Shown: positions 20,201 to 34,411 of the stretch, piece by piece
Layout of the letters: every line of letters starts with the position of its first letter
How positions within the stretch are numbered: position 1 is the stretch's first letter
Assembly (NCBI RefSeq): GCF_944389935.1
Contig: NZ_CALXOE010000010.1
Source of the DNA: an uncultured Victivallis sp.
GTDB taxonomy: Bacteria; Verrucomicrobiota; Lentisphaeria; Victivallales; Victivallaceae
DNA: 64,000 nt
Direction: 5' to 3' (one strand)
Made by a program: the position numbers and the translations under genes
The notes under the pieces: model-generated
The model's database searches: none
What the model saw: only the letters and a program-made list of their open reading frames with translations
Told to the model about the DNA's origin: nothing

Positions 20201-20234
20201 TAAAACCACCGGCTCGATCGGTGGTTTTATTTTC
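20201..20234. terminator. Bidirectional terminator between convergent genes
   Basis: AAAACCACCG / CGGTGGTTTT inverted repeat. Confidence 0.8.
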
Positions 20235-20250: not shown

Positions 20251-21981
20251 TCAACGGCTGTTCCTGCGCCGGTACGAGTGCGGCGGAACACCGTCATACG
20301 TTTGATCCGAACGGTTTACCAGCAGTACGCTCCCGCCGGAATAGGTGATGAGGGCAACGTTTTCCGCCAAAGTCTCATACCGTTCCATGAACTCGAACTG
20401 CAGATCACGCAATTCCCGGTAACGGTCGTACTGTTCCCGGATCCGGCTCACGCACCAGCGCATCTCCTCATCGGTCGCCGCGGTGCAGTCCTGTTCTCCC
20501 ATCCAGTTCACCCCCGAACTCAGGAACTTGGAGTAGAAATAGGCAAATGGCCGACCGCCGTACTCCACCATCCGGAGTTCCGGATCGGGATCATCAGTAC
20601 GGATCGCGGAGTTGACCGTTTCACAGGTCGGATTGTAACTCAGAATTCCATGATAGACCAGAAACCAGAGCGGAATCTTCTCGTCACAGATCGGCGGCAG
20701 CGGCGCGTCCGGCGTGAAAATCGCGTAAAGCACGTAATCCATCTCCGCCGCGCAGAAGTCGAACGGCCCCTCGGAACCGCTCGCACCGATCTCCTCCCGC
20801 GCCAGAGCCATCGTCTTCGCCCGCCAGCGCGCCGCCTCGGTACGAGTCAGCGGGTGCGCCGGATCGTAACAACGCCGGGTCGGAACGATGCTCATCACGT
20901 CGAAATAGTGCATGCCGCGAAAACCGAACGCCTTGAGTTCGCGGAGATCCTGCACGGCATAATGTTCGTAAGCCGCTTTCGGGCAAGGGAAATAGGATTG
21001 TCCCCCTCCCCATCTTCCTCCAGGAACGATCTCACCGTTGCGGTCTTTGATCATATCTTCCCGGCGCCACCGCGAAGCGATGGTATAGGAATCGTAAACA
21101 TTTGTATGGCAACTGATGAGGTATCCGTAAGCGTGCGCTCTGGCGATCACATTCCGCATTCCCTCTTCCCCGCCGAGCAGCGGCTCGACCGGATAGAGAT
21201 CCGGGAAACGTCCGTCGTGCCCGGATTTGTTCCAGCCGACGAGCTGAAACTCCGCATGTTCAATCCCCTGGCGATGAAACTCATCCATGAGTTCGCAGAC
21301 CCGGTCGAACGTCATCGCCACATGTATTGGCGGCTCGTTTTCCGGAGTCTGCTCCAGAACCGGAGGAGGAACCGGTTTCCATGCCAGCCGCAGTCGAACC
21401 AGCGGCCCCTCCGCCATCTCCGCCAGAACCGGGTAACGCCGGCTGCGTTCCCGCAGCGGGACACAATCCTTTTCGAGCCGGTACCGGCGATACCGCCGCG
21501 CCATACCGGAATAATCCGCCTCGCTCCCCTCCAGCGCAAAAAAGCGAAGTTCCAGATCTTCCGGAGCGCCGTCCTCATAGAGGCGGAAACGCGGATACAG
21601 AGAGTATTCCCCGTTCCGACAGGCGGCAATCAGGTCGTAATCGAGCGCCATACCCGTGACCACGGCAAGCAGGCCTCTGCCGTTCCGGACGATCCCGTAA
21701 AGCGGCATCGGATGGCGCGGGAAACACGCCTCAGTGTCAGGTCTCGCGCGAAAGCGGATCAACGCAGAGTGACAGGGATTCCCCTCCTCCCCCATAAACG
21801 TATTCGGGACAACCATATAGCCATCCTCCCCCGCCCGGGCGCAAAACGCATCGTGCCGGATCTCGACGTAGCGGACGCCCGCGGGAATCTCCTCTTTCGC
21901 GAGCCGGAAGTGATTCTCCGGTTCCGGACAGCAGCGCCGTTCGCGGGTACCGTCGGATTTGACCAGATCAATAATCAGCAT
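20251..21981 (-). CDS. Putative glycoside hydrolase, DUF5696/GH101-GH129-like TIM barrel
   Basis: LVGWNKSGHDGRFPDLYP, SCHTNVYDSY, GMHYFDV, SGSEG motifs; start set at ATG 21981 overlapping upstream stop. Confidence 0.55.
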   Translation of the reverse strand: MLIIDLVKSDGTRERRCCPEPENHFRLAKEEIPAGVRYVEIRHDAFCARAGEDGYMVVPNTFMGEEGNPCHSALIRFRARPDTEACFPRHPMPLYGIVRNGRGLLAVVTGMALDYDLIAACRNGEYSLYPRFRLYEDGAPEDLELRFFALEGSEADYSGMARRYRRYRLEKDCVPLRERSRRYPVLAEMAEGPLVRLRLAWKPVPPPVLEQTPENEPPIHVAMTFDRVCELMDEFHRQGIEHAEFQLVGWNKSGHDGRFPDLYPVEPLLGGEEGMRNVIARAHAYGYLISCHTNVYDSYTIASRWRREDMIKDRNGEIVPGGRWGGGQSYFPCPKAAYEHYAVQDLRELKAFGFRGMHYFDVMSIVPTRRCYDPAHPLTRTEAARWRAKTMALAREEIGASGSEGPFDFCAAEMDYVLYAIFTPDAPLPPICDEKIPLWFLVYHGILSYNPTCETVNSAIRTDDPDPELRMVEYGGRPFAYFYSKFLSSGVNWMGEQDCTAATDEEMRWCVSRIREQYDRYRELRDLQFEFMERYETLAENVALITYSGGSVLLVNRSDQTYDGVPPHSYRRRNSR

Positions 21982-23263
21982 ATTCTTTCCTTTCACAAAC
22001 TTTTTCTGCAAGTTTCACCACCGGAAAAGGCGGCAGCAGCGCGAGCAGCCGTTTCGCTTCCCGGAGTTTCTCCGGCTCGTCGCAGACCGTGACGCAGCGA
22101 TCGAAAATCGCAGCGATCTCCGCAAACACTTCCGGCCCGGGCTGTTCTCGCGGCGGCGACTCCCGAAACGCGAGTCGAGGCGCGGAGGCGGCATATCGTG
22201 CCGCCGAGCTCCCGGCAATGCGGCCGAATACGAGCGTCTCAAGCCCCGCATTCCCGCCGAGACGATCGCGCCCGTGAATTCCTCCTGTACACTCGCCCGC
22301 GGCGAAGAGCCCCGGGACACTGGTCGCGCCATCAGGATCGATCTCCAACCCGCCGAGCGTGGTGTGGGGCGCCGGGCGCACGGAAAAGCGCGGCGGCCAC
22401 GGCTGAAACCGTCGGAAGTATTCGGGGTATCGCTCAGCAAAACGCCGCTCATCCACGCCGGAAAAATCGTAAAAAACCTCTCCTCCGCGATCGATTTCCT
22501 GTTGAATCTGCCGCGCAAGCTCCCGTTTCCGGGGCGCGGGGGACAACCGGTCGCCGCGTTCGGTGAGCAGTTCCGCCCCCTCCCGCAGAGCAGTGGTGAT
22601 GACCGGAAATCCGTCCGCCGTGACGGTCGGCTCGAACTGGATGAATCCGACTCCGCGCAACCGTGCGCCGACGCTCATCCCCAGAGTCAAGGCCTCTCCC
22701 CGCAGCTTTTTGCTCCACGTGGAGCGTTTCCAGAGTCCGGCGAAGCCGCCGCCGGCGAGAACAACCGCCCGGGTGGAGATGATTTCACCGGATTCCAGTC
22801 GGGCACCCGCGACGGCGCCGCCATCGGCGGTGAAGAGTTCCGTCACCCGTTCCCGCAGGACGGGCCGCGCCAGACGCTCCATCACCTGTTTTCCCGTGGT
22901 CGTGCCGGAGTGAACCACGCGCGGGAAACTCGTTCCCAGCGCCGGAACCATATCGTAACTCCCGGCAGCGGTGCGGTCGAAAACGATGCCGAGCCGCTCC
23001 AGGCGTTTCAACTCCCGCAACGCGCGGCTGCACAAAACCCGGACCAGTGCCGGATCGGACTCTCCGCCGCCGGAACGGATGGTATCTTCAAACATCCGTT
23101 CCGGCGAATCCGGCTCGTTCGCCGGGGCGGAAAAGCCCATGATCTCCGTCGAGGCGGCACCACCGGCATCCGCCAGTATGACCGAAAGTTCCGGTGGAAC
23201 CTCCGCCGCCGCCGACAGTCCGGCGATTCCCCCGCCGACGATGAGGACGTCACACTTCAGCAT
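21968..23263 (-). CDS. FAD-dependent oxidoreductase, NadB/SdhA/FrdA flavoprotein-like
   Basis: GGGIAGL Rossmann motif, AAGEC.GGIHG..RLGGN, HTTLGG. Confidence 0.8.
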   Translation of the reverse strand: MLKCDVLIVGGGIAGLSAAAEVPPELSVILADAGGAASTEIMGFSAPANEPDSPERMFEDTIRSGGGESDPALVRVLCSRALRELKRLERLGIVFDRTAAGSYDMVPALGTSFPRVVHSGTTTGKQVMERLARPVLRERVTELFTADGGAVAGARLESGEIISTRAVVLAGGGFAGLWKRSTWSKKLRGEALTLGMSVGARLRGVGFIQFEPTVTADGFPVITTALREGAELLTERGDRLSPAPRKRELARQIQQEIDRGGEVFYDFSGVDERRFAERYPEYFRRFQPWPPRFSVRPAPHTTLGGLEIDPDGATSVPGLFAAGECTGGIHGRDRLGGNAGLETLVFGRIAGSSAARYAASAPRLAFRESPPREQPGPEVFAEIAAIFDRCVTVCDEPEKLREAKRLLALLPPFPVVKLAEKVCERKEYADY

Positions 23264-24912
23264 TCCCAGGCCGCTCCCTCGGCCAGCGAACCCGCGTTGC
23301 GGCAGAACAGCCGCAGAAACGGCGGAACTCCGGAGGGATCAAACTGCCAGCTCCAGGTGCGTTTGCGCTCCTCGAGTTCCGACTGCGGCACGCAGAGTTC
23401 CAGTTTCCGTTCCTCGAGATCGATCTCAATCCGGTCTCCGTCATGGACGAGCGCCAGCGGCCCCCCGAGTGCGGCCTCGGGCGAAAGATATCCGATGGAG
23501 AGTCCGCTCGAACCGCCGGAGAACCGTCCGTCGGTCACAATCGCAACGTCCCGGTCGAGACCGCGCCCCTTGAGCTCTTTCTGGAACACGTAAGCGGTCG
23601 TTCCGAACGCGGCCCGCGGCCCCAGATAGCGCAGAACCGCAACATCTCCCGGGCGGATTTCCCCCGAGTTGAGGGCCGCCAATGCCGAATCGAGCGAATC
23701 AAAACAGCGCGCGCGCCCGGTAAACGTCCGGATGTCGCAGGCTCCGGCCTTGATGATCGCCCCGTCCGGCGCGAGCGAGCCGTAAAGCACGTAAAGCGAA
23801 CCATCCTGCCGGACCGGTCGGTCGAGCGGGCGGATCACCTCCGGATCATAGATCGGGCTGTCCGCATAATTTTCCGCCAGAGTCCGGCCGGTCACGGTCA
23901 GGGCTTCTCCATGGAGTTTCGGCATCAGTGTGCGCAGAATCGCCCGCGTTCCTCCCGCCCGGTCGACTTCCTGCAGATGACACGGGCCGCTCGGCGAAGC
24001 CGCGACGATCTGCGGGATCTCGCGGGAGGCACGATCGAACGAGCTCCAGAATTTGCCCGTCAATCCGGCTTCCCGCGCGATCGCCGGCAGGTGCATGATG
24101 AGATTGGTCGAACCCGCCGTCGCCATCGTCAGCGCGATGGCGTTTTCGATCGCTCCGGCAGTGAGAATCCGGCGCGCGGTGATATTCTCCCGCAGCAGTT
24201 CCATGATCCGGAGTCCCGCCCGGTACGCAGTCTGCAGCAGCTCCGATCCGGTCGCCGCCATGCAGCCGTTGCCGGGAAGCGTCATTCCGAGCGCCTCCGC
24301 GGCGAAACACATGCTGTTTGCAGTGGTCATCACGCCGCAGGCACCGCAGGGGGAGTACATGCCGGCGACCTCGCGTTCGGCCTGGGTCCGGTCATATTCG
24401 CCTTTCATGGCTTTGCCGACGTGGTCAGTCAATTCGATGTAGTTCACGCTTCTCCCCTCGAACAGCGGCATCGGCATATATCCGCCCGTGACCATGATGG
24501 TCGGGATATCCAGCCGGGCCGCCGCCATCAGATGGCCCGGCACGATCGAATCGCAGGTGGAGAGCAGCACCATCGCATCGAACATGTTGCTTTCGACGAT
24601 CAGTTCCACCTCATCGGCAATCAGATTCCGGCTCGGGAGTTCGATGTAGCGCGGATTCTTGAGGACCATGCCGTCGCAGACCGCCGAAGTCATGACCTCA
24701 AACGGCAATCCGCCCGCTTCGCGGATGCCCTGTTTGACGCGCTCTGCGAGCGTCCGCAGATGAAGATGGCCGGGATTGTACTCATTCCAGGAGTTCACCA
24801 CCGCGACGATGGGGCGCTGGAACTCCTCCTGAGTGTACCCCATTCCGCGGATGAGTCCCCGGCGGCATTCGCCGGCGACGCCGTAAGGAAGTGCACTTCT
24901 CATCTCTTTCAT
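23257..24912 (-). CDS. IlvD/Edd-family dehydratase with atypical metal-site motif
   Basis: RPIVAVVNSWNEYNPGH, GACGVMTTANSM, GSTN..MHLPAIA, VTDGRFSG; start set at 24912 after GGAGG. Confidence 0.88.
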   Translation of the reverse strand: MKEMRSALPYGVAGECRRGLIRGMGYTQEEFQRPIVAVVNSWNEYNPGHLHLRTLAERVKQGIREAGGLPFEVMTSAVCDGMVLKNPRYIELPSRNLIADEVELIVESNMFDAMVLLSTCDSIVPGHLMAAARLDIPTIMVTGGYMPMPLFEGRSVNYIELTDHVGKAMKGEYDRTQAEREVAGMYSPCGACGVMTTANSMCFAAEALGMTLPGNGCMAATGSELLQTAYRAGLRIMELLRENITARRILTAGAIENAIALTMATAGSTNLIMHLPAIAREAGLTGKFWSSFDRASREIPQIVAASPSGPCHLQEVDRAGGTRAILRTLMPKLHGEALTVTGRTLAENYADSPIYDPEVIRPLDRPVRQDGSLYVLYGSLAPDGAIIKAGACDIRTFTGRARCFDSLDSALAALNSGEIRPGDVAVLRYLGPRAAFGTTAYVFQKELKGRGLDRDVAIVTDGRFSGGSSGLSIGYLSPEAALGGPLALVHDGDRIEIDLEERKLELCVPQSELEERKRTWSWQFDPSGVPPFLRLFCRNAGSLAEGAAWEC

Positions 24913-24913
24913 T

Positions 24914-25705
24914 TCACGCCTCCTCGAGCATGGAGTCGATTCCGCCGAAAATCGACTGGCCGCCATCGATGACGAAAGTCTGCCCGGTGATGAAAGCGGA
25001 TTTCTCCGGATCGGCGAGAAAGAGCATCATCGGAGTCACATCCTCGACCTGACCGAGTCTCCCCAGCGGAATTTTCCGCCGGAATGCAGCCATATCCTCC
25101 GGCGTGTAACGTTCGGAGATTTTGGTCAGAATGAAACCCGGGGCGATGCAGTTCACATTGATTCCATACGGGGCGACCTCCACCGCCAGCGCTTTCGTGA
25201 ACATCTCGAGCCCGGCTTTGGCCGGAGAGTACGGCAGCATCCGGCGTTTGACCCAGGTGATCCGGCCGTGAATCGAGCTCACGTTGATGATCCGCCCCGC
25301 GACCTTCCTCGCAATCATATCCCGCAACGCGATCCGGGAAGTGTAGGCCGCGGCGGAGAGATTCAGTTCGATCTGGCTCTTCCAGTACTCCACCGGCATA
25401 TCGATGAATCCCCCGGCCGGGATTTTCAACGCACCTCCCGCATTGTTGACCAGAACCTCGATTCCGCCGAAGCGCGAGAGAAACGCCTCCACAAGTTTTT
25501 CGCATTCGACGCTGCTGGTCACGTCCGCGCCGAACGCCTCCGCCTCCCCCCCCGCATTCCGGATCTCCTCGACGACCTTTTCCGCTCCGGCAGGATTCCG
25601 GAAATAGTTGACCCCCACCCGGTATCCCTCCCGCGCAAACGCTTTCGCCGTCGCCGCACCGATCCCGTGCGAAGCTCCCGTAATCAGTACTCGTTTCATT
25701 TGCAT
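24914..25705 (-). CDS. Short-chain dehydrogenase/reductase
   Basis: TGASHGIG, NNAG, YSPAK, IAPG motifs. Confidence 0.93.
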   Translation of the reverse strand: MQMKRVLITGASHGIGAATAKAFAREGYRVGVNYFRNPAGAEKVVEEIRNAGGEAEAFGADVTSSVECEKLVEAFLSRFGGIEVLVNNAGGALKIPAGGFIDMPVEYWKSQIELNLSAAAYTSRIALRDMIARKVAGRIINVSSIHGRITWVKRRMLPYSPAKAGLEMFTKALAVEVAPYGINVNCIAPGFILTKISERYTPEDMAAFRRKIPLGRLGQVEDVTPMMLFLADPEKSAFITGQTFVIDGGQSIFGGIDSMLEEA

Positions 25706-25715
25706 CCTCCTGTTT

Positions 25716-25733
25716 TATCGAAATAGATATAAT
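25716..25733. promoter_or_regulatory. TATC-N6-GATA operator candidate, copy upstream of the SDR gene
   Basis: TATCgaaataGATATAAT matches copies at 27.7 kb and 34.5 kb. Confidence 0.5.
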
Positions 25734-25747
25734 AAAAGAAAAAAAGA

Positions 25748-26875
25748 TCAGACAAACTGTTCATAAGCGAGTCTCGCCGCGCCGAGCGCCGACCCGAATT
25801 CCCCCAGAGAGGTGATACCGATCGAGCAGTTGCTCCGTTCCGGCGGCAGAAGAGACTGAAGCTGCCGGAGGGTTTCATTGTAAAGAAATCCGTCCGGCCG
25901 GCTCTGCCCCCCCGTGAAGATCAACGCCTCCGGAGAATAGAGCTGAATCATCGCCGCAATTCCGGCGGCATTGTACTGCGCGGCCTGGATCATCATTCCG
26001 GCGGCATCCGCATCGCCCGCGGCGGCGAACCGGTCGAGAGCCGCCGCATCATGAAGTTCCGGCCGTCCGGGAAACCGCTCCGCGGCGATGGCCGCGAGAT
26101 AATGGCCACCGGAAAACGCCTCGAGACATCCGCGGAAACCGCAGCTGCACAACCGATTGTTCCCGGGAATCAGGATGTGGCCGATATAGCCGACCGGCCG
26201 TTGAGGATGGCTGATGAGCAAATGATGATTCACAACCGCCCCCGATCCGATTCCGACTCCGAGACCGACTGTTACGAGATTCCCGCATCCGCGATTCCGG
26301 CCGAAATGGTACTCCGCCGCGGCGACACCGACCTGCGTGGTCACGGCGAAAACCGGCACCCCGAACCGGGCGGCGATCTCCGCCACCGGCAGATCCGTCC
26401 CGCGTTTCATCCCGAAGTTTCCTCCGGAAACGATGATTCCACGCTCGGAATCGATCACGCCGGAAACGGAGAGCCCGACCGCAACCGGGCGAAACTCCTC
26501 GAGACTCCTGCGGCAGACCCCATCGAGCCATTCCACAAAACGGGCCGGATCGCGAAACCGCTCCGTCGGGCATTTCTCCCGGTGGATCTCCCGGAAATTC
26601 AGGTCGCAGAAGAGAATCCGCGTCGTCTCGGAACCGACGTCGATTCCGCCATACACGATGCTGTCGGCATTGATGCACAGCGGCACGGTCGGCCGCCCCG
26701 GAGCGACGCTCTTCGACTGTCTGGCAAAGACGAGTCCCCGTGCCAGCAGATTCTCCACCGTTTTGTACATGGTTCCCCATGCCAGTCCGGTACGGGCGGC
26801 AATCTCCTTGCGCGACGCTTCTCCGCGCATTTCCCGGATCGCGTCAAGTACTTTTACGTTGTTGGTGTAATGCAT
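25748..26875 (-). CDS. ROK-family transcriptional regulator
   Basis: N-terminal HTH (SRKEIAARTGL), GIDVG, GVGIGSG, CSCGFRGCLE zinc motif. Confidence 0.9.
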   Translation of the reverse strand: MHYTNNVKVLDAIREMRGEASRKEIAARTGLAWGTMYKTVENLLARGLVFARQSKSVAPGRPTVPLCINADSIVYGGIDVGSETTRILFCDLNFREIHREKCPTERFRDPARFVEWLDGVCRRSLEEFRPVAVGLSVSGVIDSERGIIVSGGNFGMKRGTDLPVAEIAARFGVPVFAVTTQVGVAAAEYHFGRNRGCGNLVTVGLGVGIGSGAVVNHHLLISHPQRPVGYIGHILIPGNNRLCSCGFRGCLEAFSGGHYLAAIAAERFPGRPELHDAAALDRFAAAGDADAAGMMIQAAQYNAAGIAAMIQLYSPEALIFTGGQSRPDGFLYNETLRQLQSLLPPERSNCSIGITSLGEFGSALGAARLAYEQFV

Positions 26876-27693
26876 TGCTTCAGATGTTCCCGGACCGTGT
26901 AAAGCGGCAGAAACAGATACTTCGGAACCGTCCCGCCGATTTCCCCGATCAGCCGCACCGCGATCTCCGCCATCGGCAGATCACGGTGCGATTGAATAAA
27001 AGTATCATAAATACGGATGAATTCAAGTGCATCATCGAGAGAATTTCCACCAATATAATCATGACCGGGTACGATATTGCCGATCCGCTCCCGCCGCAGC
27101 CGTTCAATCGATTTCCGATAGGCCGGCAGATCCATGTAAAGGGCACACCCCTGAGCCGTCGTACCGTTCCATTGCAGCGAATCGCCGCTGAGCAGCGTCC
27201 CGCTCTCTTCGTCGAGGTAACAGACGCAGTCGCTGTCGTGTCCGGGCGTGGCGATGACCCGGAGCCGGCCGATCCGGTCGCCGTCCTGAAAAATCCATTC
27301 GGGATCCACGCCCTGCAGAACCGGCGGCGGCGCAGGGCTGTACTCGGGAAACTCGTTCCGAATGCGTCGGCTGCAATCCAGCGGATCCAGCAGTTTGGAG
27401 GCTCCGGACTCGATTACACCGCACTTCACGCCGAGTTCCCGGAGCCGGTGATGCCCGCCGACATGATCTCCATGCGTATGCGTGCAGAGCAGCCAGTCGA
27501 TCTTGTCCACGTTCAGCCCGGCCGACTCGAGCGCCGGTAAAATACAGTCATCCACGGTCGTCCGGTCGGCACCGGAGTCAATCAGCAGATTCTGTCTCCC
27601 GCATACGAGATAGACCCCGCTCCAAACCTGCCCGAACGGAGTCCTCAGCAGGCCGATCCCCGGTGCAATTTTCTCAAAATTTACCCGATTCAT
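26854..27693 (-). CDS. Metallo-beta-lactamase-fold hydrolase
   Basis: HTHGDH, PGHD, SGDSL, PGH metal-binding motifs. Confidence 0.88.
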   Translation of the reverse strand: MNRVNFEKIAPGIGLLRTPFGQVWSGVYLVCGRQNLLIDSGADRTTVDDCILPALESAGLNVDKIDWLLCTHTHGDHVGGHHRLRELGVKCGVIESGASKLLDPLDCSRRIRNEFPEYSPAPPPVLQGVDPEWIFQDGDRIGRLRVIATPGHDSDCVCYLDEESGTLLSGDSLQWNGTTAQGCALYMDLPAYRKSIERLRRERIGNIVPGHDYIGGNSLDDALEFIRIYDTFIQSHRDLPMAEIAVRLIGEIGGTVPKYLFLPLYTVREHLKQCITPTT

Positions 27694-27694
27694 C

Positions 27695-27723
27695 TTGACA
27701 ACTCCCATTTTTCAGAGTATGAT
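27695..27723 (+). promoter_or_regulatory. Sigma70-type promoter of the DUF1116 gene
   Basis: TTGACA-N17-TATGAT. Confidence 0.75.
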
Positions 27724-27724
27724 A

Positions 27725-27755
27725 TACAATAATATCGCTTTAGATATAATTCAAG
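27725..27755 (-). promoter_or_regulatory. Promoter/operator unit for the MBL-ROK-SDR operon
   Basis: Minus strand TTGAAT-N17-TATTGT with TATC-N6-GATA palindrome in the spacer; 25/31 identical to 34483-34513. Confidence 0.65.
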
Positions 27756-27766
27756 GGGGTGTCTCT

Positions 27767-28993
27767 ATGAAAACAGAAAATTCAATCGCGTTCGAGAAAT
27801 TGGTGAGTGCCAGACCGGTACTGATCGGCTGTCGGCGGGCGGGGGAAGTGATTCCGGGATTCCGACGGAATCTGATTCTTCACTCCGGGCCGGAACTGGA
27901 GTTCGGAAAGATGCGGGGACCGCATCGGAAAGGGGTGGTTGGAGCCGCGCTTTACGAGGGCCTGGCCCGAACCGCCTCTGAAGCGGAACAAATGATCGAA
28001 AACGGGGAAATCGAACTTGCGGCCGCCAACGACTGGAATTCCGGAGCACCGGGCAGCGGAATCACCTCGTACTCGATGGCGGTTCTCGTGGTTCGGGAGG
28101 CGAATTCCGGAATCATCGCGACTGCGCCTCCGATCGAGGGCGCGCAGGGCGGCGGACTCGGCGGCTGGGGCGTATACAATGAAGAGGTGAAAACCAATCT
28201 CGACCGGATTGCCGGGAGTTACGCGCCGCTTCTTGACGCCGCACTCGCCGCCATCGGCGGAATCGACGTCGTCGAACTCTTTTCCGCCGGGCTGCAGATG
28301 GGAGACGAGGAACACACGCGCCAGGTCGCTACTGACAACCTGTTCTTTTCCAAAATCTTCAATGGTGTCGACCAGATCGACGCCGCATCGGAGGAGAAAT
28401 TCCGCCTGCTGCGTTTTCTGCAGTCGTGCCGCCGGTTCGTTCACCACGTCGGCTGCGCCTCCGCAGTCGCCTCTTTGAAGTCCGCCTCCGGTGTAGCGGG
28501 CGCGACGCTCGTGACTGCGATGTGCGGCAACGGCGTCGAATTCGGAATCAAAACAAGCGGAACCGGTGAACAGTGGTTCACCGCCCCGGCTCCGGTGTTC
28601 AACGGCCACTACTTTTCGCCGGAAAACGGTCCGGCGGAATCCTCTCCGTGGCTCGGCGACTCGAGCAACGTCGAGGCGTGGGGAGTCGGCGGCATGGCTG
28701 CGGCCGCGGCACCGGCACTGCTCGCCATGCGTGGCGAAACCCTCGAACAGGGCATCGCCCAGTGTCGGGAAATGGCCCGCGTCACCTGCGGCGTGAATCC
28801 GCATTTCGCAATTCCGACTCTCGGAGAGTGCGCTCCGGCGGGGATTCTGCCGGAGCGGGTCGTGGAGACCGGGATCACCCCGAAAATGCACGGAGGAATC
28901 CTCTCCCGCACGACAGGCGGACAAATCGGCATCGGCTACGCGCGCACTCCGCTGGACTGTTTCGGAAAGGCACTCTCATGTTTCGGGCGCTGA
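27767..28993 (+). CDS. DUF1116 (YlbE/YahG-like) protein
   Basis: ILHSGPEL, GAALYEGLA, GLQMGDE.H, NGVEFGI, GDSS.VEA.G.GG, IGIG..R.PL.CF. Confidence 0.8.
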   Translation: MKTENSIAFEKLVSARPVLIGCRRAGEVIPGFRRNLILHSGPELEFGKMRGPHRKGVVGAALYEGLARTASEAEQMIENGEIELAAANDWNSGAPGSGITSYSMAVLVVREANSGIIATAPPIEGAQGGGLGGWGVYNEEVKTNLDRIAGSYAPLLDAALAAIGGIDVVELFSAGLQMGDEEHTRQVATDNLFFSKIFNGVDQIDAASEEKFRLLRFLQSCRRFVHHVGCASAVASLKSASGVAGATLVTAMCGNGVEFGIKTSGTGEQWFTAPAPVFNGHYFSPENGPAESSPWLGDSSNVEAWGVGGMAAAAAPALLAMRGETLEQGIAQCREMARVTCGVNPHFAIPTLGECAPAGILPERVVETGITPKMHGGILSRTTGGQIGIGYARTPLDCFGKALSCFGR

Positions 28994-29553
28994 TCGCTGC
29001 ATTGGACGGAATTCCCTGCGAACCGGGAATTAAGATCCTCCGGGAATTCCGGACCGGAACGCTCTTTCCGGAGATCGGTTGCGCCCGGGTCACGGTCGAG
29101 GCGGGAATCCTCGTCGCACGTGGTGCGTTCCGTGATTTCGACATCTACAGCGATGCCACGGCGAACAATCAGGAACTGTGGAAGCTCGGAGACACTTTTG
29201 AACTGATCTTCGGCGAAGAAGGCCGTCAGGACTATTTCGAGGTTCAAGTCGCACCGAACGGCCCGCAGCTGGAACTCCACATCCCGGATTGTCGCACGTT
29301 TCGCGCCATTCCCCATGCGAAGAAGATCTGCGATATCGGCCTGCAAAGTCGGACCGTGATCCTGTCGGAACAGAATCTGTGGCTTGCAGAACTCAGAATT
29401 CCGCTCCGATCCGTCGGAATCAGCGAAGATCGACTGCGCTACGTCGCCATCCGGCAGAACCACACCCACGGCCGAGAGACGGAAATCACGGCAGGTGCGG
29501 TTTTTCCGGAGACCGCCCATACGCCGGAACTCTGGGAGCGTTATCCGGCATAA
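28978..29553 (+). CDS. Carbohydrate-binding family 9/DOMON-like protein
   Basis: GDTFELIF, DYFEVQVAPNG, WLAELRIPL pattern; overlaps DUF1116 stop. Confidence 0.5.
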   Translation: MFRALIAALDGIPCEPGIKILREFRTGTLFPEIGCARVTVEAGILVARGAFRDFDIYSDATANNQELWKLGDTFELIFGEEGRQDYFEVQVAPNGPQLELHIPDCRTFRAIPHAKKICDIGLQSRTVILSEQNLWLAELRIPLRSVGISEDRLRYVAIRQNHTHGRETEITAGAVFPETAHTPELWERYPA

Positions 29554-29560
29554 GCCTGCC

Positions 29561-29630: not shown

Positions 29631-31211
29631 TCACTGACTGGGGAGGAGCCATTCCGGCTCAGTCCCCTGTGCGCCGTACCAGTCGAAACGTTCTTCGCGG
29701 TCGGCGATGAGCCACCGGGCGGGCGCGGGACTCTCCATCCAGTCGAGCGGTTCGACCCGGCTGCCGCCGGAAGCGGCCGTGCGGAAAAGAGCTCTCATCT
29801 CCTCAAGCTCCTGTGCCGACGATATTCCCGGCAGGACCGAGGCGAAGAGCGTCGTGCCGCTTTCCGCGACCAGGCGCGCCCACTGGCGGTTGAACTGCCA
29901 CGGAACACATTCGGTAACGCCCACGCAATCCGGATCGACGTCGAAAAAGGTGCGATGCTGCGCGAGCCGGAACGCGAGGGTGTTGACTCCCATTTTCCGG
30001 GTTCGTTCCCAGACGCGGCCGCTGGTGTCGTCCCCGCTCCTCACGACATGCACCAACCCGGCTCCGAGATGTCCTATGATGTTGCAGCCGAGGATCATCG
30101 CCGTTCCGGCGCCCTCGAGGAGCGCCCGGTAGAAGTCCAAGACGATCTCGGCGGAACTGCGGTCATTTTTCCGGAACGTCCAGTTTCCGGAAGCGGGGAA
30201 TCCCCGCATCTCGAATCCCCATTGCCCGAAAATATCGAACGTCGAAAAATCATGCTTGATCAATTCATATCCGGCTCCGGCCAGACGGGCCATATCGTTC
30301 CGGACCCATTCCAGCACTTCCGGCAGAGAAGGATCCAGATACATGGGATCCCGCAGACTGCGGTACTTTTCCGGCGGGTTCGCCGTTTTCAGCGGCCGGA
30401 ACCAGATTCCGGGCCGCAGGCCGTCGGCCCGGATCGCAGCGGCGAGCTCCCCGAGATCGGCATAACCATCCGCCGTCTGTTCCCACGGCCCCATTCCGCG
30501 ATTGCGTTCCCAGCCGTCGTCGATGACCAGAAACGGCCGGTTCAGCAATCCCCGGGTCAGCGAGGACAGAAGGTCGGCGTCTTTCTTCAGCTGGGCGGAG
30601 GAGGATTTCCCGTAGGCGTAGTACCAGTTGTTGAAACCGTAGACCGGAAACTCCGGCAGCAGAGGGTCGCCGCACATGGTCCGGCAGAACTCCTGAACAT
30701 GCCGGGTGGCGGGCTTGTCCGTGCGAATCGCGATTCCGGTCAGCGTCGCAGCGGCGAGTTCTCTCCTGCCGAGCATGAGCGGCTCGGTCCCGCAGCGCAG
30801 ATCGAGCCAGAGGGTGATCCCCCGCGGGTCGCACTGCCAGGCGGCGAATGCAGCCGGACGCACCCGGACGCCGAACCCGAGAAAAAGCCCCTCGTGAAAC
30901 GCCACAAAGTACCACGGCATCAGCGTCCCGGGATCGGGATGACGCCAGCTCACATCTCCATAAGTCCGTTCCCAGGCATCGCCGCAGACCAGACATTCCG
31001 CCGGCAGTTCGATGTTCCAGCGCAGGCGAATGAAGCGGACACCCGCCCGGCCGCCGGCGACGACCACCTGCAGCCAGCCGTCGGCCGCGCGGAATGAAAG
31101 TTCCACTCCTCCGGCCGCCTGTTCGTTTTTCGGTGCGGCAAACACCTCGGAACCATCTCCGCAGATCACTTCGGCAAAGTCAGGAAGTCGCGGAAAAAGG
31201 ACTTCTTCCAT
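29631..31211 (-). CDS. Alpha-galactosidase-like glycoside hydrolase (clan GH-D, GH27/GH36-like)
   Basis: YGFNNWY, VIDDGW, IKHDF (nucleophile), RSGDD (acid/base); start set at ATG 31211. Confidence 0.75.
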   Translation of the reverse strand: MEEVLFPRLPDFAEVICGDGSEVFAAPKNEQAAGGVELSFRAADGWLQVVVAGGRAGVRFIRLRWNIELPAECLVCGDAWERTYGDVSWRHPDPGTLMPWYFVAFHEGLFLGFGVRVRPAAFAAWQCDPRGITLWLDLRCGTEPLMLGRRELAAATLTGIAIRTDKPATRHVQEFCRTMCGDPLLPEFPVYGFNNWYYAYGKSSSAQLKKDADLLSSLTRGLLNRPFLVIDDGWERNRGMGPWEQTADGYADLGELAAAIRADGLRPGIWFRPLKTANPPEKYRSLRDPMYLDPSLPEVLEWVRNDMARLAGAGYELIKHDFSTFDIFGQWGFEMRGFPASGNWTFRKNDRSSAEIVLDFYRALLEGAGTAMILGCNIIGHLGAGLVHVVRSGDDTSGRVWERTRKMGVNTLAFRLAQHRTFFDVDPDCVGVTECVPWQFNRQWARLVAESGTTLFASVLPGISSAQELEEMRALFRTAASGGSRVEPLDWMESPAPARWLIADREERFDWYGAQGTEPEWLLPSQ

Positions 31212-31339
31212 CTTCGTCTCCAATTCTTTCCAACAGTCAAAACTTTCGATGTGCAACAAAAAAATATCTGCATGACAGCTGACGCGACAGGCCTCGGATC
31301 AATGTATCATGCAGGGGGAAAAGAGTCAAGCGCAGTTTT

Positions 31340-34300
31340 TCACTTGCTACTCGATTCTCCTGATTTTTTCCGAGTTTCCCGCTCATCCGCCGCGCGGGGA
31401 GAGAGAAGCCGGAAAATCTCGCCTGCGACCGGGACCAGCCGGGCACCTTCGACATAGACCGGAGATTCGGTCAGCGGGAGAATGACGATACCGTTCCGAT
31501 CGGCAGTCAGAAGTTTCGTTTCACCCACGACGTCGGTCACCCGAATGGATTTCCCGTTTTCCGCAGTCAGGGCCAGCGGTCGCGGAGGCGTCACATCCGT
31601 TGCGACCCACGGAGCGCGGTGAAATCCCTGCGGGATGATGGCCTCCTGTTCACGCAGGCCGTCTTTCCGACTCCAGAGTACCGCGAATTTGCCGTTGGGT
31701 CCCTTGTCGAACAGCAAACCGCGCGCATCGGGGTCCTCGAATTGCAGATCGCCGAGGAATTCACCGGGATCGAAAAATTTCGCCGCCGTCTGATAAGCCC
31801 AGAGCGGAACTTTCGGCATCCAGTCGCGATGGAACAACCCGAAATGACACTCCCGTTTCCGATCCTGTTTCACATGAGTGCCGATCAGATGCGGCGGTTC
31901 AAAGTCGTTGAACATGTAGAGCATGACGTTCTTCACGTCGGCGGCGACTGCGAGAGCCATCTGGATACAGAGGTCGTCGGCGGTGGTACGCTGATTGTTC
32001 GTCACACCGAAATTCGGACCGCTTGCGCTGTACAATTCACTGATGTACAGCGGCTTGTCTCCGAATTCACGGGTTGCTTCCCGAATGGTTTTCAACGTCC
32101 CGAGGTAACTCCAGTAGGAGTCGTCGTTCTCCGGAGAACGGGTGATCCCGGCAGCGTGGAACGCGAGGTAGTCGAAATCATCCCAGGCCCCTTTTTCGTA
32201 AACAGTCCGCATATAAGGCATGTCGCCGTTGGCGATGGAGAGCCCGGTCAACTTGATCTCCGGGAAATCCCGGTCCCGGACTTCGCGCAGCGCCGAAGCG
32301 TAGAATGCGTACACCTCCGCAAGTTTCGCCTTTCTCTCTCCGCCGGAGAGATTCCATTCGTTGCTGAATTCAAACACTTCCGACCCGGATGCACGGGTAT
32401 TCTTCAGGTTGCCCGCCATAAACTTCTTCACGCTTTCCCGGTTCGCAAGCCAGCTGTTTTCTCCACGGGCATGGCGCAGGACATTGTCCCAGTCTCCGAT
32501 GTTGTTGTGATACCAGGTCCTGATGCCGAGAGAATGCGCAAGCTCCTCGTATCCATAGCATTGACGGACCAGAGAAACGCCGATTCTGCGCATCATCGAC
32601 AAAACCTGCTCCGGCGTCCGCGACTCTGTGACCTGCCCCGGGTTGTTGCGCCAGCCGGTCATCCCGATGCGCGACATCTTTCCCGCCCGGAAACGGTATT
32701 CCGGCAGATACCCCCCGCAGACCCGCCGATAATCACCGGCATATTCGTGCGAAGCGAAAATATCAAAGAATACCGGCCCCGGCCGCGTGATCTCGACGGA
32801 AATCGGGATGGAACACTCCGCCTCAGCTTCGACGATGTTGGACACGGTGTCCTCGCGCAGAATATTTCCGTGAAAGTCATGCACCACATAATGCAGGTCG
32901 ATCCGCTGCCGTTTCCGGAAATAATTCCCGACGTGAGCCTGCAGGCGGTAGGTACCGGGCTCTTTCAGCAACCAGAACGGGTCCGGGGATTCGACCTCCA
33001 TGAGCAGCCGTTCATCTCCTGCCCGCGCCAGGGCCTCGCGGCGGCGCGCCCCCTGATCGGGGCGGACGGAAAACGCAATCGTCCCGGAATAAAAATCCGG
33101 AGCCCAGGGCAATCGCGCCAGATTGACCGCCACCCGGAGTTTGCCGTCCTGCCAGAATTCCGGCCAGGTCGGGCTCTCCCCGCTGACCGCGATAGCGGCG
33201 TGCCCCCGCTCTCCCCCGAATTCAATGACCTGTCCGCGGATTTTTTCCTCTGGCTCGCCGCCGGTTCGATGCAGATAGAACCGTTCCGGTGAGAACCGCG
33301 CCGTCTCCCGGATTCCGGCAGCGGGGATGAAAGGAACCGCGCAGAGATTTTTCCCCCACTCCTGCGGAACCTTTCCGGACGGATAAATCCGCAGTCGCGC
33401 TCCCTCCGGAAAAAGCGTCCACTGCAGCAGGTAGAGTCTCCCGCCCTTCTCATTCAGCGCCTCGACGCCGAACACCTTGCTGCTCGCCCCTTTCACGTCC
33501 GTTGCGGTGGGGATCATACGGTAATCGATCCGCGGCAGTTCAGGATTGTCATCTTCGAGCGCAACGCCGCGAAATTCCGCCGGAAGTTCCGCCCGGCCGG
33601 GCAACTCCGGAACGCCGATCATTCCGAGCGGATGCCACGCCCCGTCGTCATTCCGGAACTCCACACTGGTGAATCCGTCGGCATGGAACGTCAATTTCAT
33701 GCGCTCATTTTCCAGGATCTCGATCTGTCCGCGTTCCCGCGTCCGCAACGCACCGCGATCGACGAATGCGAGGTCGGCAATCTTGAGCACGCCGTGCGTA
33801 TCGTGCCCCGGAATTACTTCAAAGCGGATCTGAACGGGAGGCCGATCGGACTGCAGTCTGATGTTCCCGACTTTCCTCGTTCTGCCGGATTCCAGGTCGG
33901 TCACGCTCAAGTCGAGCAGTCGATCCGTATGAATCAACTCGGCTTTCACACGATACCATGTCTCATCCCGGACGGGGAGATCTCCCGGAAGAAATCCGCC
34001 GGGAACCGTCCGCAAATAACGTCCACCGAGTTCGGCGACGGTTTCCCCGCTCGAATCAAGCAGCGTAATCCGGAATGAATACGGGTTCTTTTCCTTTCCC
34101 CATCCCGGCGGGGAAAATTTGAAATCATAAGAGAGCTCCCAAGCCTCGCTCGGCTCAAACCGCGGAGAACACGCAATGGCGGGATCCCCTGCCCAATCGT
34201 AATCCTGCAACATCAAAACCGCCCGTTTGCCATCCCGCGAAATCCCCGCAGAAGTATAGCGCTCCCCGTTGCGATGTCCGCTGAACGTCCAGCGTTTCGC

Positions 34301-34411
34301 AATTTCCGGAGACTGGAAACTCTCTTTCAGAAGGACTCGTCCCTCATTTGCGCCCGCCGAGACACGGGAGAACATCAGGATACAAAAAACAATCCCCGTC
34401 CAAAACTTCAT
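31340..34411 (-). CDS. Large secreted modular protein with clan GH-A (GH39/GH5-like) catalytic domain
   Basis: Signal peptide; FEFSNEWN acid/base, LAFHAAG, LYISEL nucleophile. Confidence 0.65.
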   Translation of the reverse strand: MKFWTGIVFCILMFSRVSAGANEGRVLLKESFQSPEIAKRWTFSGHRNGERYTSAGISRDGKRAVLMLQDYDWAGDPAIACSPRFEPSEAWELSYDFKFSPPGWGKEKNPYSFRITLLDSSGETVAELGGRYLRTVPGGFLPGDLPVRDETWYRVKAELIHTDRLLDLSVTDLESGRTRKVGNIRLQSDRPPVQIRFEVIPGHDTHGVLKIADLAFVDRGALRTRERGQIEILENERMKLTFHADGFTSVEFRNDDGAWHPLGMIGVPELPGRAELPAEFRGVALEDDNPELPRIDYRMIPTATDVKGASSKVFGVEALNEKGGRLYLLQWTLFPEGARLRIYPSGKVPQEWGKNLCAVPFIPAAGIRETARFSPERFYLHRTGGEPEEKIRGQVIEFGGERGHAAIAVSGESPTWPEFWQDGKLRVAVNLARLPWAPDFYSGTIAFSVRPDQGARRREALARAGDERLLMEVESPDPFWLLKEPGTYRLQAHVGNYFRKRQRIDLHYVVHDFHGNILREDTVSNIVEAEAECSIPISVEITRPGPVFFDIFASHEYAGDYRRVCGGYLPEYRFRAGKMSRIGMTGWRNNPGQVTESRTPEQVLSMMRRIGVSLVRQCYGYEELAHSLGIRTWYHNNIGDWDNVLRHARGENSWLANRESVKKFMAGNLKNTRASGSEVFEFSNEWNLSGGERKAKLAEVYAFYASALREVRDRDFPEIKLTGLSIANGDMPYMRTVYEKGAWDDFDYLAFHAAGITRSPENDDSYWSYLGTLKTIREATREFGDKPLYISELYSASGPNFGVTNNQRTTADDLCIQMALAVAADVKNVMLYMFNDFEPPHLIGTHVKQDRKRECHFGLFHRDWMPKVPLWAYQTAAKFFDPGEFLGDLQFEDPDARGLLFDKGPNGKFAVLWSRKDGLREQEAIIPQGFHRAPWVATDVTPPRPLALTAENGKSIRVTDVVGETKLLTADRNGIVILPLTESPVYVEGARLVPVAGEIFRLLSPRAADERETRKKSGESSSK

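What the first reader, a model, noticed from the sequence alone, without database searches (positions are those of the whole stretch)
20251..29553. Undescribed catabolic pathway: MBL-ROK-SDR-dehydratase-FAD oxidoreductase-hydrolase, divergent from DUF1116-CBM9
Seen: six overlapping or closely spaced minus-strand genes share a divergent control region with DUF1116 and a CBM9-like gene. The ROK sensor has YIGH and TTQV where the family usually has EIGH and ENDA. Established: SDR, lactonase and IlvD/Edd dehydratase form the core of non-phosphorylative oxidative sugar pathways. Inference: a glycoside is hydrolysed, oxidised, delactonised (MBL) and dehydrated. Atypical residues in three proteins plus DUF1116 suggest an unusual, possibly N-containing or modified, sugar.
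Basis: partly seen in the sequence, partly recalled or inferred. Interest (0 to 1): 0.68.

Follow-up and report, generated by a model that had tools for sequence, protein, structure and literature searches.

The report
Conserved undescribed sugar-acid operon with DUF1116
A gut Lentisphaeria bacterium carries a tightly packed, regulator-controlled operon, shared with about 80 other anaerobe species, that most likely burns an unusual galactose-type (possibly amino or N-acetyl) sugar through an oxidised sugar-acid route containing three enzymes whose chemistry has never been described.

Summary
Six minus-strand genes (MBL hydrolase, ROK regulator, SDR, IlvD/Edd paralogue, short FAD_binding_2 protein, DUF5696) overlap or abut. 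They are divergent from AllG/DUF1116 plus a small unclassified ORF. The "CBM9" label has no support, and ORF 29289-31097(+) is a shadow of a minus-strand GH36-like gene.

SDR-IlvD*-FAD2 with MBL and AllG recurs in 56-73 of 80 loci from Lentisphaerota, Verrucomicrobiota, Kiritimatiellota, Planctomycetota and Bacillota. It often sits beside mutarotase, KDG/KDGal kinase and KDPG aldolase, so it is one sugar-catabolic unit.

Three enzymes depart from their families:
- IlvD* lacks two of four "universal" Mg2+ ligands.
- FAD2 has an invariant Glu where FrdA/NadB have His, and no catalytic Arg.
- AllG here has no AllF/AllH partners anywhere in the genome.

Other lineages add FdrA, AllH and an acetate-kinase homologue. 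DUF5696 is a GH129-like alpha-galacto-type glycosidase with its catalytic residues intact.

Best reading: a ROK-controlled oxidative, De Ley-Doudoroff-like route for a modified galactose-type sugar, with two unassigned steps. The substrate is unproven. The scan had already noted the Firmicute form of this cassette on other DNA. I found no paper describing it.

The parts
20201..20229 (.). Bidirectional intrinsic-terminator-like hairpin (12-bp stem). It closes the minus-strand operon and the convergent pilin-like gene.
20251..21981 (-). DUF5696 protein, a cytoplasmic GH129-like retaining alpha-galacto-type glycosidase. The likely start is the ATG at 21981, preceded by AGGAAAG. The ORF extends to the TTG at 22011.
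   Evidence: Pfam DUF5696 at 1.8e-38. phmmer to NagBb 5wzn at 3.6e-17, with equivalents of D435, E478 and W398 aligned. These residues are invariant in 11 homologues. AlphaFold model pLDDT 82; Foldseek top hit is NagBb at E 1e-29 and TM 0.70, followed by ZgGH129, GH36 GalN-ase, GH101 and GH36. Start codon.
21968..23263 (-). FAD2: a 431-aa FAD_binding_2 flavoprotein related to NadB/FrdA. It has QFEPT in place of QFHPT, no conserved catalytic Arg and no detected C-terminal domain.
23257..24912 (-). IlvD*: an IlvD/Edd-family paralogue (551 aa from the ATG at 24912). It has CDS for CDK and FGTTA for GPGMxEM. The Fe-S cysteines and the catalytic Ser (FSGG) are kept.
   Evidence: The canonical IlvD lies elsewhere in the genome. 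Mg2+ ligand roles from PMC5770437.
24914..25705 (-). Classical SDR with TGxxxGxG, NNAG and YxxxK. It is nearest to glucose 1-dehydrogenase and FabG types.
25716..25733 (.). Operator-like palindrome TATC-N6-GATA(TAAT), lying between ROK and SDR.
25748..26875 (-). ROK-family regulator with an N-terminal winged helix. The Zn motif is kept. The sugar-site residues read YIGH and TTQ.
26854..27708 (-). MBL-fold hydrolase with a complete HxHxDH, H, D, H metal site. It is the putative lactonase.
27709..27766 (.). Divergent control region. It holds the operator TATC-N6-GATA at 27733-27746. Plus-strand promoter-like sites span 27695-27750.
27767..28993 (+). AllG/DUF1116 protein (408 aa from the ATG, with GGGGG upstream). 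It is a singleton in a genome that has no AllF/FdrA and no AllH.
28978..29553 (+). It overlaps the AllG stop by 16 nt. In sister genomes a mutarotase occupies this position.
29631..31259 (-). A 542-aa cytoplasmic GH36-like protein (weak matches only), second gene of a unit that has the same operator upstream.
31340..34411 (-). A 1023-aa secreted protein of unknown family. Its N-terminus reads like a signal peptide (my reading of the sequence; no predictor was run).
34491..34504 (.). Third operator copy. The extended match to the 27.7-kb copy runs about 34481-34513, upstream of the 1023-aa gene.

Best explanation
This is a ROK-repressed catabolic regulon for a galacto-configured, probably C2-modified (amino or N-acyl) aldose.

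Shown:
- The gene identities.
- Tight translational coupling between the operon genes.
- A shared operator in front of MBL-ROK/AllG, of SDR-IlvD*-FAD2-DUF5696 and of the secreted-protein/GH36-like unit.
- Conservation of MBL-SDR-IlvD*-FAD2-AllG across five phyla.
- A GH129-like fold with intact catalytic residues in DUF5696.
- Loss of two Mg2+ ligands in IlvD*, and an altered active site in FAD2.
- Absence of AllF and AllH from this genome.
- A KDG/KDGal-type kinase and a KDPGal aldolase encoded elsewhere in the genome.

Inferred pathway:
1. A glycoside is imported and cleaved by DUF5696 and/or the GH36-like enzyme.
2. The SDR oxidises the free aldose at C1.
3. The MBL hydrolase opens the lactone.
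4. IlvD* eliminates the C3 hydroxyl from an aldonate whose C2 substituent is not a plain hydroxyl. This would explain the loss of the Mg2+ site.
5. FAD2 and AllG process the resulting 2-substituted enoate or imine to 2-keto-3-deoxy-galactonate.
6. The kinase and aldolase on contig C39 convert that product to pyruvate and glyceraldehyde-3-phosphate.

In lineages that also carry FdrA, AllH and an acetate-kinase homologue, the AllG step is probably phosphorolytic and yields ATP. In this genome it is probably hydrolytic. The ROK protein, whose pocket has lost two acidic residues, probably senses an anionic intermediate.
For: - Gene identities.
- Coupling and terminator.
- Operator: 5 core matches against 0.21 expected. 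At one substitution the extended motif hits 11 strand-placements genome-wide: the three window promoter sites, two sites at the start of contig C56 before GH-like genes, and four other sites not examined further.
- Conservation in 80 loci found with IlvD*: FAD2 in 73, SDR in 73, MBL in 56, AllG in 56.
- Mutarotase, PfkB and Eda occur inside the operon in many loci. The kinase is nearest to the KDG/KDGal kinase models. The aldolase on C39 scores above the KDPGal-aldolase cut-off, 235 against 207 bits.
- IlvD*: CDS and FGTTA are conserved in at least 90-95% of the 81 sequences, and a canonical IlvD is present on C22. According to PMC5770437, the four Mg2+ ligands, including KCX130 and Glu463, are fully conserved in the family.
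- FAD2: Glu is invariant in 73/73, the Arg is not conserved, and one His and one Arg are kept.
- DUF5696.
- AllG: its only characterised relative is a subunit of AllFGH, which cleaves an N-acyl bond by phosphorolysis and feeds a kinase (PMC11326118).
- The Ack homologue linked to the cassette scores above the ackA cut-off.
- No FdrA or AllH in a genome that is 99.7% complete.
Against:
- The SDR and the MBL protein are generic. The MBL's nearest solved relatives are LACTB2 and thioesterases, not lactonases.
- I cannot assign a necessary reaction to FAD2 in any scheme.
- DUF5696 is present in only about 8 of the 80 loci, so its specificity need not define the substrate of the cassette.
- Neighbouring glycosidases and transporters differ between lineages: GH2, heparinase-like, SSF, EamA, ABC.
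- The genome has two NagA genes, so a canonical amino-sugar route exists at least in part.
- No transporter lies in the operon.
Confidence: 0.55

Rival explanations
1. Ordinary De Ley-Doudoroff or non-phosphorylative catabolism of an unmodified sugar such as D-galactose. SDR, MBL lactonase and IlvD-type dehydratase would do all the work. FAD2 and AllG would be unrelated or accessory.
For: SDR, lactonase, IlvD/Edd dehydratase, kinase and aldolase together form exactly the known scheme. The SDR is nearest to glucose 1-dehydrogenases. A KDPGal aldolase and a KDG/KDGal-like kinase are present. The glycosidases are alpha-galactosidase-like.
Against: FAD2 directly follows IlvD* in 73 of 81 loci, and AllG is present in 56, across five phyla. 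IlvD* has lost two Mg2+ ligands described as universal. It is 56-80% identical across phyla but only 40% identical to the housekeeping IlvD. That pattern points to a distinct, constrained function.
Confidence: 0.15
2. An anaerobic sulfo-Entner-Doudoroff-like route for sulfoquinovose or another anionic 6-substituted sugar. SDR, lactonase, IlvD-type dehydratase and aldolase parallel the Pseudomonas sulfo-ED pathway. FAD2 and AllG would act on the C3 sulfonate product.
For: The ROK pocket has lost two acidic residues, which suits an anionic effector. Hosts are mostly herbivore gut, rumen and digester anaerobes. The glycosidase is alpha-retaining.
Against: No sulfonate exporter, sulfolactaldehyde dehydrogenase or reductase, or desulfonating enzyme appears among the conserved neighbours. 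The linked kinase is KDG/KDGal-like, which needs a free 6-OH. The nearest relatives of DUF5696 act on GalNAc, GalN, Gal and anhydro-Gal, not on glucose-configured sugars.
Confidence: 0.07
3. Not sugar catabolism. The core (IlvD*, FAD2, AllG, MBL, SDR) degrades a small N-containing or dicarboxylic acid, for example a ureide or a hydroxy-amino acid. The glycosidase and regulator are recruited neighbours.
For: AllG's only known role is in ureide (oxalurate) breakdown. FAD2 is nearest to L-aspartate oxidase. IlvD-type enzymes also act on short dihydroxy acids.
Against: Mutarotase, KDG/KDGal kinase and KDPG aldolase are in-operon in many lineages. The regulators are sugar-type (ROK, LacI, AraC, IclR). 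No ureide or purine genes are nearby.
Confidence: 0.1

Closest known systems
Oxidative sugar pathways of the De Ley-Doudoroff / Weimberg-Dahms type, e.g. Caulobacter XylB (SDR), XylC (lactonase), XylD (IlvD/Edd), and DgoK/DgoA for galactonate
   Same: An SDR, a metal hydrolase and an IlvD/Edd-family enzyme sit in one operon. A 2-keto-3-deoxy-acid kinase and a KDPGal-type aldolase complete the route.
   Different: Two additional universal members, FAD2 and AllG, have no counterpart. The dehydratase lacks KCX and the second Glu of the Mg2+ site. The hosts are strict anaerobes. The lactonase candidate is MBL-fold rather than SMP30 or amidohydrolase.
E. coli AllFGH oxamate carbamoyltransferase with carbamate kinase AllK (PMC11326118)
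   Same: The AllG/DUF1116 domain matches at 5e-53. In Clostridia and Opitutales the cassette also carries FdrA/AllF and AllH homologues next to a kinase.
   Different: This genome has no AllF and no AllH. Where a kinase is present, it belongs to the acetate/propionate family, not the carbamate kinase family. The context is sugar acids, not ureides. AllGs without FdrA sit on long branches.
GH129 alpha-N-acetylgalactosaminidase NagBb of Bifidobacterium bifidum (PDB 5WZN)
   Same: It is the best sequence and fold match to the DUF5696 protein. Equivalents of Asp435, Glu478 and the Trp398 platform are conserved. Asp435 is named as catalytic in PMC5698469 and Trp398 in PMC8106489. Glu478 is from my memory of Sato et al. 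2017.
   Different: Identity is only 18-20%. The protein belongs to the Pfam family DUF5696. The Ca2+ and N-acetyl recognition residues were not checked, and the substrate is unknown.
Zobellia galactanivorans 3,6-anhydro-D-galactose route (DagB GH129-like, DauA-D; PMC5698469)
   Same: A GH129-like exo-alpha-glycosidase feeds an oxidise, then eliminate, then KDGal, then kinase, then aldolase sequence.
   Different: That route uses an aldehyde dehydrogenase and an enolase-superfamily cycloisomerase. It has no lactonase, mutarotase, flavoprotein or DUF1116. The presence of mutarotase and MBL here argues against an anhydro sugar.

Membership tests
IlvD/Edd dehydratase family | ILVD_EDD_N and ILV_EDD_C domains | tested here: met
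   E-values 6.6e-105 and 3.7e-55
IlvD/Edd dehydratase family | Four conserved Mg2+ ligands (Glu/Asp, Asp, carbamylated Lys of CDK, Glu of GPGMxEM), per PMC5770437 | tested here: not met
   CDK is replaced by CDS and GPGMxEM by FGTTA, conserved in at least 90-95% of 81 family members. The Asp residues are kept.
IlvD/Edd dehydratase family | Fe-S cysteines and the catalytic Ser of the DGRxSG motif | tested here: met
   The Cys of CDS, the Cys of GxC..MTTANSM and the CDG Cys are conserved, as is TDGRFSGG.
Dihydroxy-acid dehydratase or named sugar-acid dehydratase equivalogs (NCBIfam) | Score above the curated cut-off | tested here: not met
   The best score is 544.5 against a cut-off of 644 (PRK00911). 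All eight models fall below their cut-offs.
L-aspartate oxidase / fumarate reductase flavoproteins | FAD_binding_2 domain | tested here: met
   E-value 2.2e-41
L-aspartate oxidase / fumarate reductase flavoproteins | Active-site His of QFHPT and the catalytic Arg (FrdA H232 and R287; numbering from memory) | tested here: not met
   Glu occupies the His position in 73/73 sequences. The Arg position is Y, H, F or N in most. NadB models score 210 against a cut-off of 528.
Oxamate carbamoyltransferase AllFGH | AllG (PF06545) subunit | tested here: met
   E-value 5.3e-53. There is one copy in the genome. The PDB relative 3clq is uncharacterised.
Oxamate carbamoyltransferase AllFGH | AllF/FdrA and AllH partner subunits. 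All three genes are required for activity in E. coli (PMC11326118). | tested here: not met
   No PF11392 hit and no FdrA homologue in a genome 99.7% complete.
ROK family regulators | ROK domain, N-terminal wHTH and the Zn motif GHx(9-11)CxCGxxGCxE | tested here: met
ROK family regulators | Sugar-contact residues: the Glu of ExGH and the Asn-Asp of the NDAN segment (family consensus recalled from memory) | tested here: not met
   The residues read YIGH (25/25) and TTQ (20-23/25).
GH129 (alpha-N-acetylgalactosaminidase) | Homology and fold, with the catalytic Asp/Glu pair and the Trp platform | tested here: met
GH129 (alpha-N-acetylgalactosaminidase) | Hydrolysis of alpha-GalNAc glycosides | not testable with these tools
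   An enzyme assay is needed. Identity is only about 19%.
CBM9 | Match to a CBM9 profile or a CBM9 beta-sandwich fold | tested here: inconclusive
   No Pfam hit at E<=5. The model is all-beta but has pLDDT 48, so it was not searched.
MBL-fold hydrolases | HxHxDH plus downstream His, Asp and His metal ligands | tested here: met
   HTHGDH, PGHD, SGDS and PGHD are read in the sequence. Pfam E-value 1.6e-18.
Classical SDR | TGxxxGxG, NNAG and the S...YxxxK triad | tested here: met
   Pfam

The most novel reading that the evidence does not exclude
The cassette encodes an undescribed oxidative route for N-acetylhexosamine, probably GalNAc released by the GH129-like enzyme.

Proposed steps:
1. The sugar is oxidised to N-acetyl-aminoaldonate.
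2. The Mg-site-less IlvD* eliminates water to give a 2-acetamido-2-enoate. This compound has the same outline as oxalurate, with acetyl in place of carbamoyl and C=C in place of C=O.
3. The DUF1116 enzyme removes the acetyl group. In this genome that step would be hydrolytic. In Clostridia and Opitutales, where FdrA, AllH and an acetate kinase are present, it would be phosphorolytic, yielding acetyl phosphate and then ATP.
4. The released enamine collapses to 2-keto-3-deoxy-galactonate plus ammonia.

If correct, this would be a new way to conserve energy from an amide bond and a new reaction type for both the IlvD/Edd and AllG families.
Probability: 0.15. Interest if true: 0.85.

Novelty: new variant of a known kind. 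Interest (0 to 1): 0.62.

Why it matters
Gut, rumen and digester anaerobes from five phyla keep this cassette. One Victivallales version was indexed in 235 blocks of the public assembly collection. Even so, three of its enzymes cannot be assigned a reaction.

Solving it would:
- give a function to DUF1116 outside ureide metabolism;
- show what an IlvD/Edd enzyme does without its 'universal' Mg2+ site;
- assign a reaction to a NadB-like flavoprotein with a Glu-for-His active site;
- identify a carbon source, possibly host- or cell-wall-derived amino sugars, used by poorly known gut Lentisphaerota and Oscillospiraceae.

In the fuller versions it may also reveal a new substrate-level phosphorylation step.

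Tried and rejected
- The window's own IlvD* is not on record in the look-up of encoding contigs.
- Literature searches gave nothing relevant: DUF1116, DUF5696, FdrA+IlvD+NadB+MBL, N-acetylhexosaminates, 2-haloacrylate hydratase. One search was wasted on the ambiguous term 'AllG'.
- 'PGH instead of PCN' in IlvD* is rejected as an anomaly. The canonical IlvD of the same genome also has PGH.
- The CBM9-like ORF has no Pfam hit, shows no similarity to the mutarotase that occupies its slot in sister genomes, and gave a poor model. I did not run a fold search on it.
- The contexts of DUF5696 paralogues in sister genomes (GDPD, FGGY kinase, AraC, GH10) did not reveal the substrate.
- The NagA/NagB check was inconclusive: two NagA genes and no PF01182 match.
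- 3,6-anhydro-D-galactose was considered because ZgGH129 is the second-best fold match. I set it aside because a mutarotase and a lactonase candidate are conserved.
- Sulfoquinovose was considered and ranked low because no sulfonate-handling genes are present.
- Phosphorolysis of the lactone as the ATP-yielding step was rejected on energetic grounds (my estimate from memory). A lactonase candidate is also present.
- The 1023-aa secreted protein has no detectable relatives in Pfam, NCBIfam or PDB sequences.

Full report
ANATOMY

The window comes from a Lentisphaeria/Victivallales genome: 3.64 Mb, 98 contigs, 99.7% complete.

Pfam and NCBIfam confirm six minus-strand genes between 20251 and 27708:
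- DUF5696
- a 431-aa FAD_binding_2 protein (FAD2)
- an IlvD/Edd protein (IlvD*)
- a classical SDR
- a ROK regulator with a winged-helix N-terminus
- an MBL-fold hydrolase

The plus-strand gene at 27767-28993 is AllG, the current Pfam name of DUF1116.

The junctions are tight:
- MBL and ROK overlap by 22 nt.
- IlvD* begins at the ATG at 24912, one base after the SDR stop and behind GAGGAGG.
- FAD2 overlaps IlvD* by 7 nt.
- The ATG of DUF5696 (21981) lies inside the last codons of FAD2.
- A 12-bp bidirectional hairpin at 20201-20229 ends the unit.

Only 58 bp separate the MBL and AllG start codons.

The 191-aa ORF at 28978-29553 overlaps the AllG stop. It is conserved in a few relatives. It matches no Pfam family even at E<=5, and its model is unreliable (pLDDT 48). 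'CBM9-like' therefore remains a guess.

The long plus-strand ORF 29289-31097 is a compositional shadow. The real gene is 29631-31259 on the minus strand. It is weakly GH36-like and follows a 1023-aa protein of unknown family whose N-terminus reads like a signal peptide.

CO-REGULATION

The palindrome TATC-N6-GATA occurs five times in the window against 0.21 expected. Three copies share extended flanks. They lie in the MBL/AllG divergent region (27733), between ROK and SDR (25716), and upstream of the 1023-aa gene (34491).

With one substitution allowed, the extended motif gives 11 strand-placements in the whole genome. These are:
- the three window sites;
- two sites at the start of contig C56, upstream of a pilin-like gene, a weak GH42-like gene and a weak GH76/GH127-like gene;
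- four other sites that I did not examine further.

This fits one regulon, presumably under the ROK protein. Binding itself is inferred. An earlier first-reader note (e1-5282469) pointed to this repeat, and I checked it here.

CONSERVATION

A genome-collection scan with IlvD* returned 80 loci at 55-80% identity. They come from Lentisphaerota (including the cultured Oligosphaera ethanolica), Verrucomicrobiota/Opitutales, Kiritimatiellota, Planctomycetota and Bacillota (Oscillospiraceae, Lachnospiraceae, Anaerovibrio).

tblastn and unbiased ORF clustering, counted over 81 loci including the window, gave:

| Gene | Loci |
|---|---|
| FAD2, directly after IlvD* | 73 |
| SDR, directly before IlvD* | 73 |
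| MBL | 56 |
| AllG | 56 |

Many of the misses are contig ends.

Architectures:
- Victivallales: [mutarotase<]AllG< | MBL>ROK>SDR>[DUF5696>]IlvD*>FAD2>
- Opitutales/Planctomycetes: PfkB<AllH<[Ack<]AllG<FdrA< | MBL>ROK>SDR>IlvD*>FAD2>
- Clostridia: LacI< MBL>SDR>IlvD*>FAD2>FdrA>AllG>Ack>AllH>, usually with Eda, PfkB and mutarotase
- Kiritimatiellae-type: Eda>PfkB>SDR>IlvD*>FAD2>MBL>AllG>

Called genes with Pfam labels in public records agree with these layouts.

The cassette is accessory and patchy. The DUF5696 search found it in two other genomes of the same genus. The FAD2 orthologue was found in only 9 of 301 sampled genomes of the phylum, and in none of eight other genomes sampled from the genus.

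The refutation criterion 'not conserved together' therefore fails. The genes form one unit. The frequent in-operon mutarotase, KDG/KDGal-type kinase and KDPG-type aldolase mark it as aldose catabolism ending in a 2-keto-3-deoxy-hexonate.

In this genome the kinase and an aldolase lie on contig C39 under an IclR regulator. The aldolase scores above the NCBIfam cut-off for 2-dehydro-3-deoxy-6-phosphogalactonate aldolase, 235 against 207 bits.

THE ATYPICAL ENZYMES

(a) IlvD* is a paralogue. A canonical IlvD lies on contig C22, only 40% identical.
- Across 81 IlvD* sequences, CDK is replaced by CDS and GPGMxEM by FGTTA.
- The cluster cysteines and the catalytic Ser motif TDGRFSGG are kept.
- The D-xylonate dehydratase structure paper states that Glu92, Asp129, carbamylated Lys130 and Glu463 bind Mg2+ and are fully conserved in the family (PMC5770437). 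IlvD* has lost the last two.
- It stays below every NCBIfam cut-off.
- The 'PGH' feature is not atypical.

(b) FAD2 is nearest to L-aspartate oxidase and FrdA.
- It carries an invariant Glu in QFEPT where those enzymes have His.
- The catalytic Arg position is Y, H, F or N in most members.
- One His and one Arg of the carboxylate site are invariant.
- It is therefore not a fumarate reductase or an aspartate oxidase. It probably still binds a carboxylate.

(c) AllG. Its only characterised relative is a subunit of E. coli AllFGH. That enzyme phosphorolyses oxalurate to carbamoyl phosphate and oxamate and needs all three genes (PMC11326118).
- This genome has no AllF/FdrA and no AllH.
- In the AllG tree, FdrA-less proteins form at least three separate groups, all on long branches.
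- The Victivallales clade keeps 83 of the 158 positions that are near-invariant in FdrA-linked AllGs. These include many polar ones: the MGDxHTRQ segment, GDS..E and HGG.
- The protein is thus probably still functional but works without its partners.

(d) ROK. YIGH is invariant, TTQ is nearly so, and the Zn motif is intact. Two acidic sugar-contact residues of the family consensus (from memory) are gone. That would suit an anionic effector; this is an inference.

THE HYDROLASE

The DUF5696 protein has no obvious signal sequence. [quoted passage not shown]

In the alignment, Asp435, Glu478 and Trp398 of NagBb match D371, E414 and W334, numbered from the TTG at 22011. These residues are invariant in 11 homologues. 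Asp435 is named as catalytic in PMC5698469 and Trp398 as the stacking platform in PMC8106489. Glu478 is from my memory of the original structure paper.

A model with pLDDT 82 matches, in this order:
1. NagBb (E 1e-29, TM 0.70)
2. the Zobellia 3,6-anhydro-D-galactosidase
3. the Flavonifractor GH36 galactosaminidase
4. GH101 enzymes
5. GH36 alpha-galactosidases

All of these are alpha-galacto-type glycosidases. Together with the GH36-like neighbour and the KDPGal aldolase, this points to a galacto-configured sugar. It remains a hint only, because DUF5696 accompanies the cassette in just about eight loci.

MECHANISM

Shown: the parts list, their coupling, their conservation and the altered active sites.

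Inferred: release of an aldose by DUF5696 and/or the GH36-like enzyme; C1 oxidation by the SDR; lactone opening by the MBL protein; elimination by IlvD*; two unassigned steps by FAD2 and AllG; then KDGal kinase and aldolase.

The substrate is probably not a plain aldonate, for three reasons:
- IlvD* has lost the site that binds the carboxylate and 2-hydroxyl through Mg2+.
- AllG relatives cleave N-acyl bonds.
- In other lineages the AllFGH-like trio sits beside a kinase that passes the acetate/propionate kinase cut-off.

My most specific proposal is an N-acetyl-aminoaldonate. Dehydration would give a 2-acetamido-2-enoate, which resembles oxalurate. The acetyl group would leave as acetate here, or as acetyl phosphate where FdrA, AllH and Ack are present. 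The enamine would then collapse to KDGal and ammonia.

I give this proposal about 15%. I cannot give FAD2 a necessary role in it. No paper in the library describes catabolism of N-acetylhexosaminates.

RIVALS

- A plain De Ley-Doudoroff pathway with passenger genes (0.15)
- A non-sugar acid or ureide pathway (0.10)
- A sulfoquinovose-type route (0.07)

The evidence for and against each is in the rival entries.

PREVIOUS NOTES OF THIS SCAN

The Firmicute form of the cassette (FdrA/DUF1116/DUF2877 plus acetate kinase within a sugar-acid operon) was reported before on other DNA (e1-4374068, e1-3865176, e1-3229698). I reached the same architecture independently from this window.

New in this report:
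- the reduced PVC form with a stand-alone AllG
- the ROK regulon
- the GH129-like glycosidase
- the family-wide active-site changes
- a cultured carrier

VERDICT

This is an undescribed variant of oxidative sugar catabolism with three enzymes of unknown chemistry, and the substrate is unproven.

Noticed in passing
window 29289-31097 (+) versus 29631-31259 (-): The 602-aa plus-strand ORF is an Arg/Pro/Gly-rich shadow. The real gene is the 542-aa minus-strand protein with a DDGW segment and weak GH36/melibiase similarity.
   Followed up: partly
G000 contig C56:100-240 (L117): Two further copies of the TATC-N6-GATATAAT operator precede a pilin-like DUF1559 gene, a weak GH42-like gene and a weak GH76/GH127-like gene. 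They are probably part of the same regulon.
   Followed up: partly
L013:6060-8745, and window 20251-22011 with 35527-37920: A DUF5696 orthologue in a sister genome sits divergently next to a GDPD phosphodiesterase. In the window, a GDPD-dehydrogenase fusion lies 13 kb away. This recurring glycosidase-GDPD neighbourhood could point to glycosyl-glycerol or teichoic-acid-type substrates.
   Followed up: no
Oligosphaera ethanolica DSM 24202 record: L042, L123, L124: This cultured strain carries the cassette without an adjacent AllG. It also has a detached FdrA-AllG-Ack module and a second complete paralogous cassette (ROK-FAD2-FdrA-AllG-SDR-MBL...IlvD*). That suggests a family of related pathways and offers an experimental host.
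   Followed up: partly
G000 contig C39:31187-33795 (L118): A KDG/KDGal-like kinase and a KDPGal aldolase are divergent from an IclR regulator. The promoter region carries the palindrome ATGAGAATGCATTCTCAT, so this unit has a different control from the ROK operator.
   Followed up: no
window 53153-54274 (-) and G000 contig C40: There are two NagA (GlcNAc-6-P deacetylase) genes above cut-off, but the genome has no match to the NagB/Glucosamine_iso family.
   Followed up: no
AllG tree: AllG proteins that have lost the FdrA neighbour lie on markedly longer branches in at least three separate groups. Three cysteines near-invariant in FdrA-linked AllGs are replaced in the Victivallales clade.
   Followed up: partly
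window 17251-20148: The LacI-GH130-pilin-like unit upstream is a separate, convergent transcription unit. It shares the bidirectional terminator at 20201-20229.
   Followed up: no
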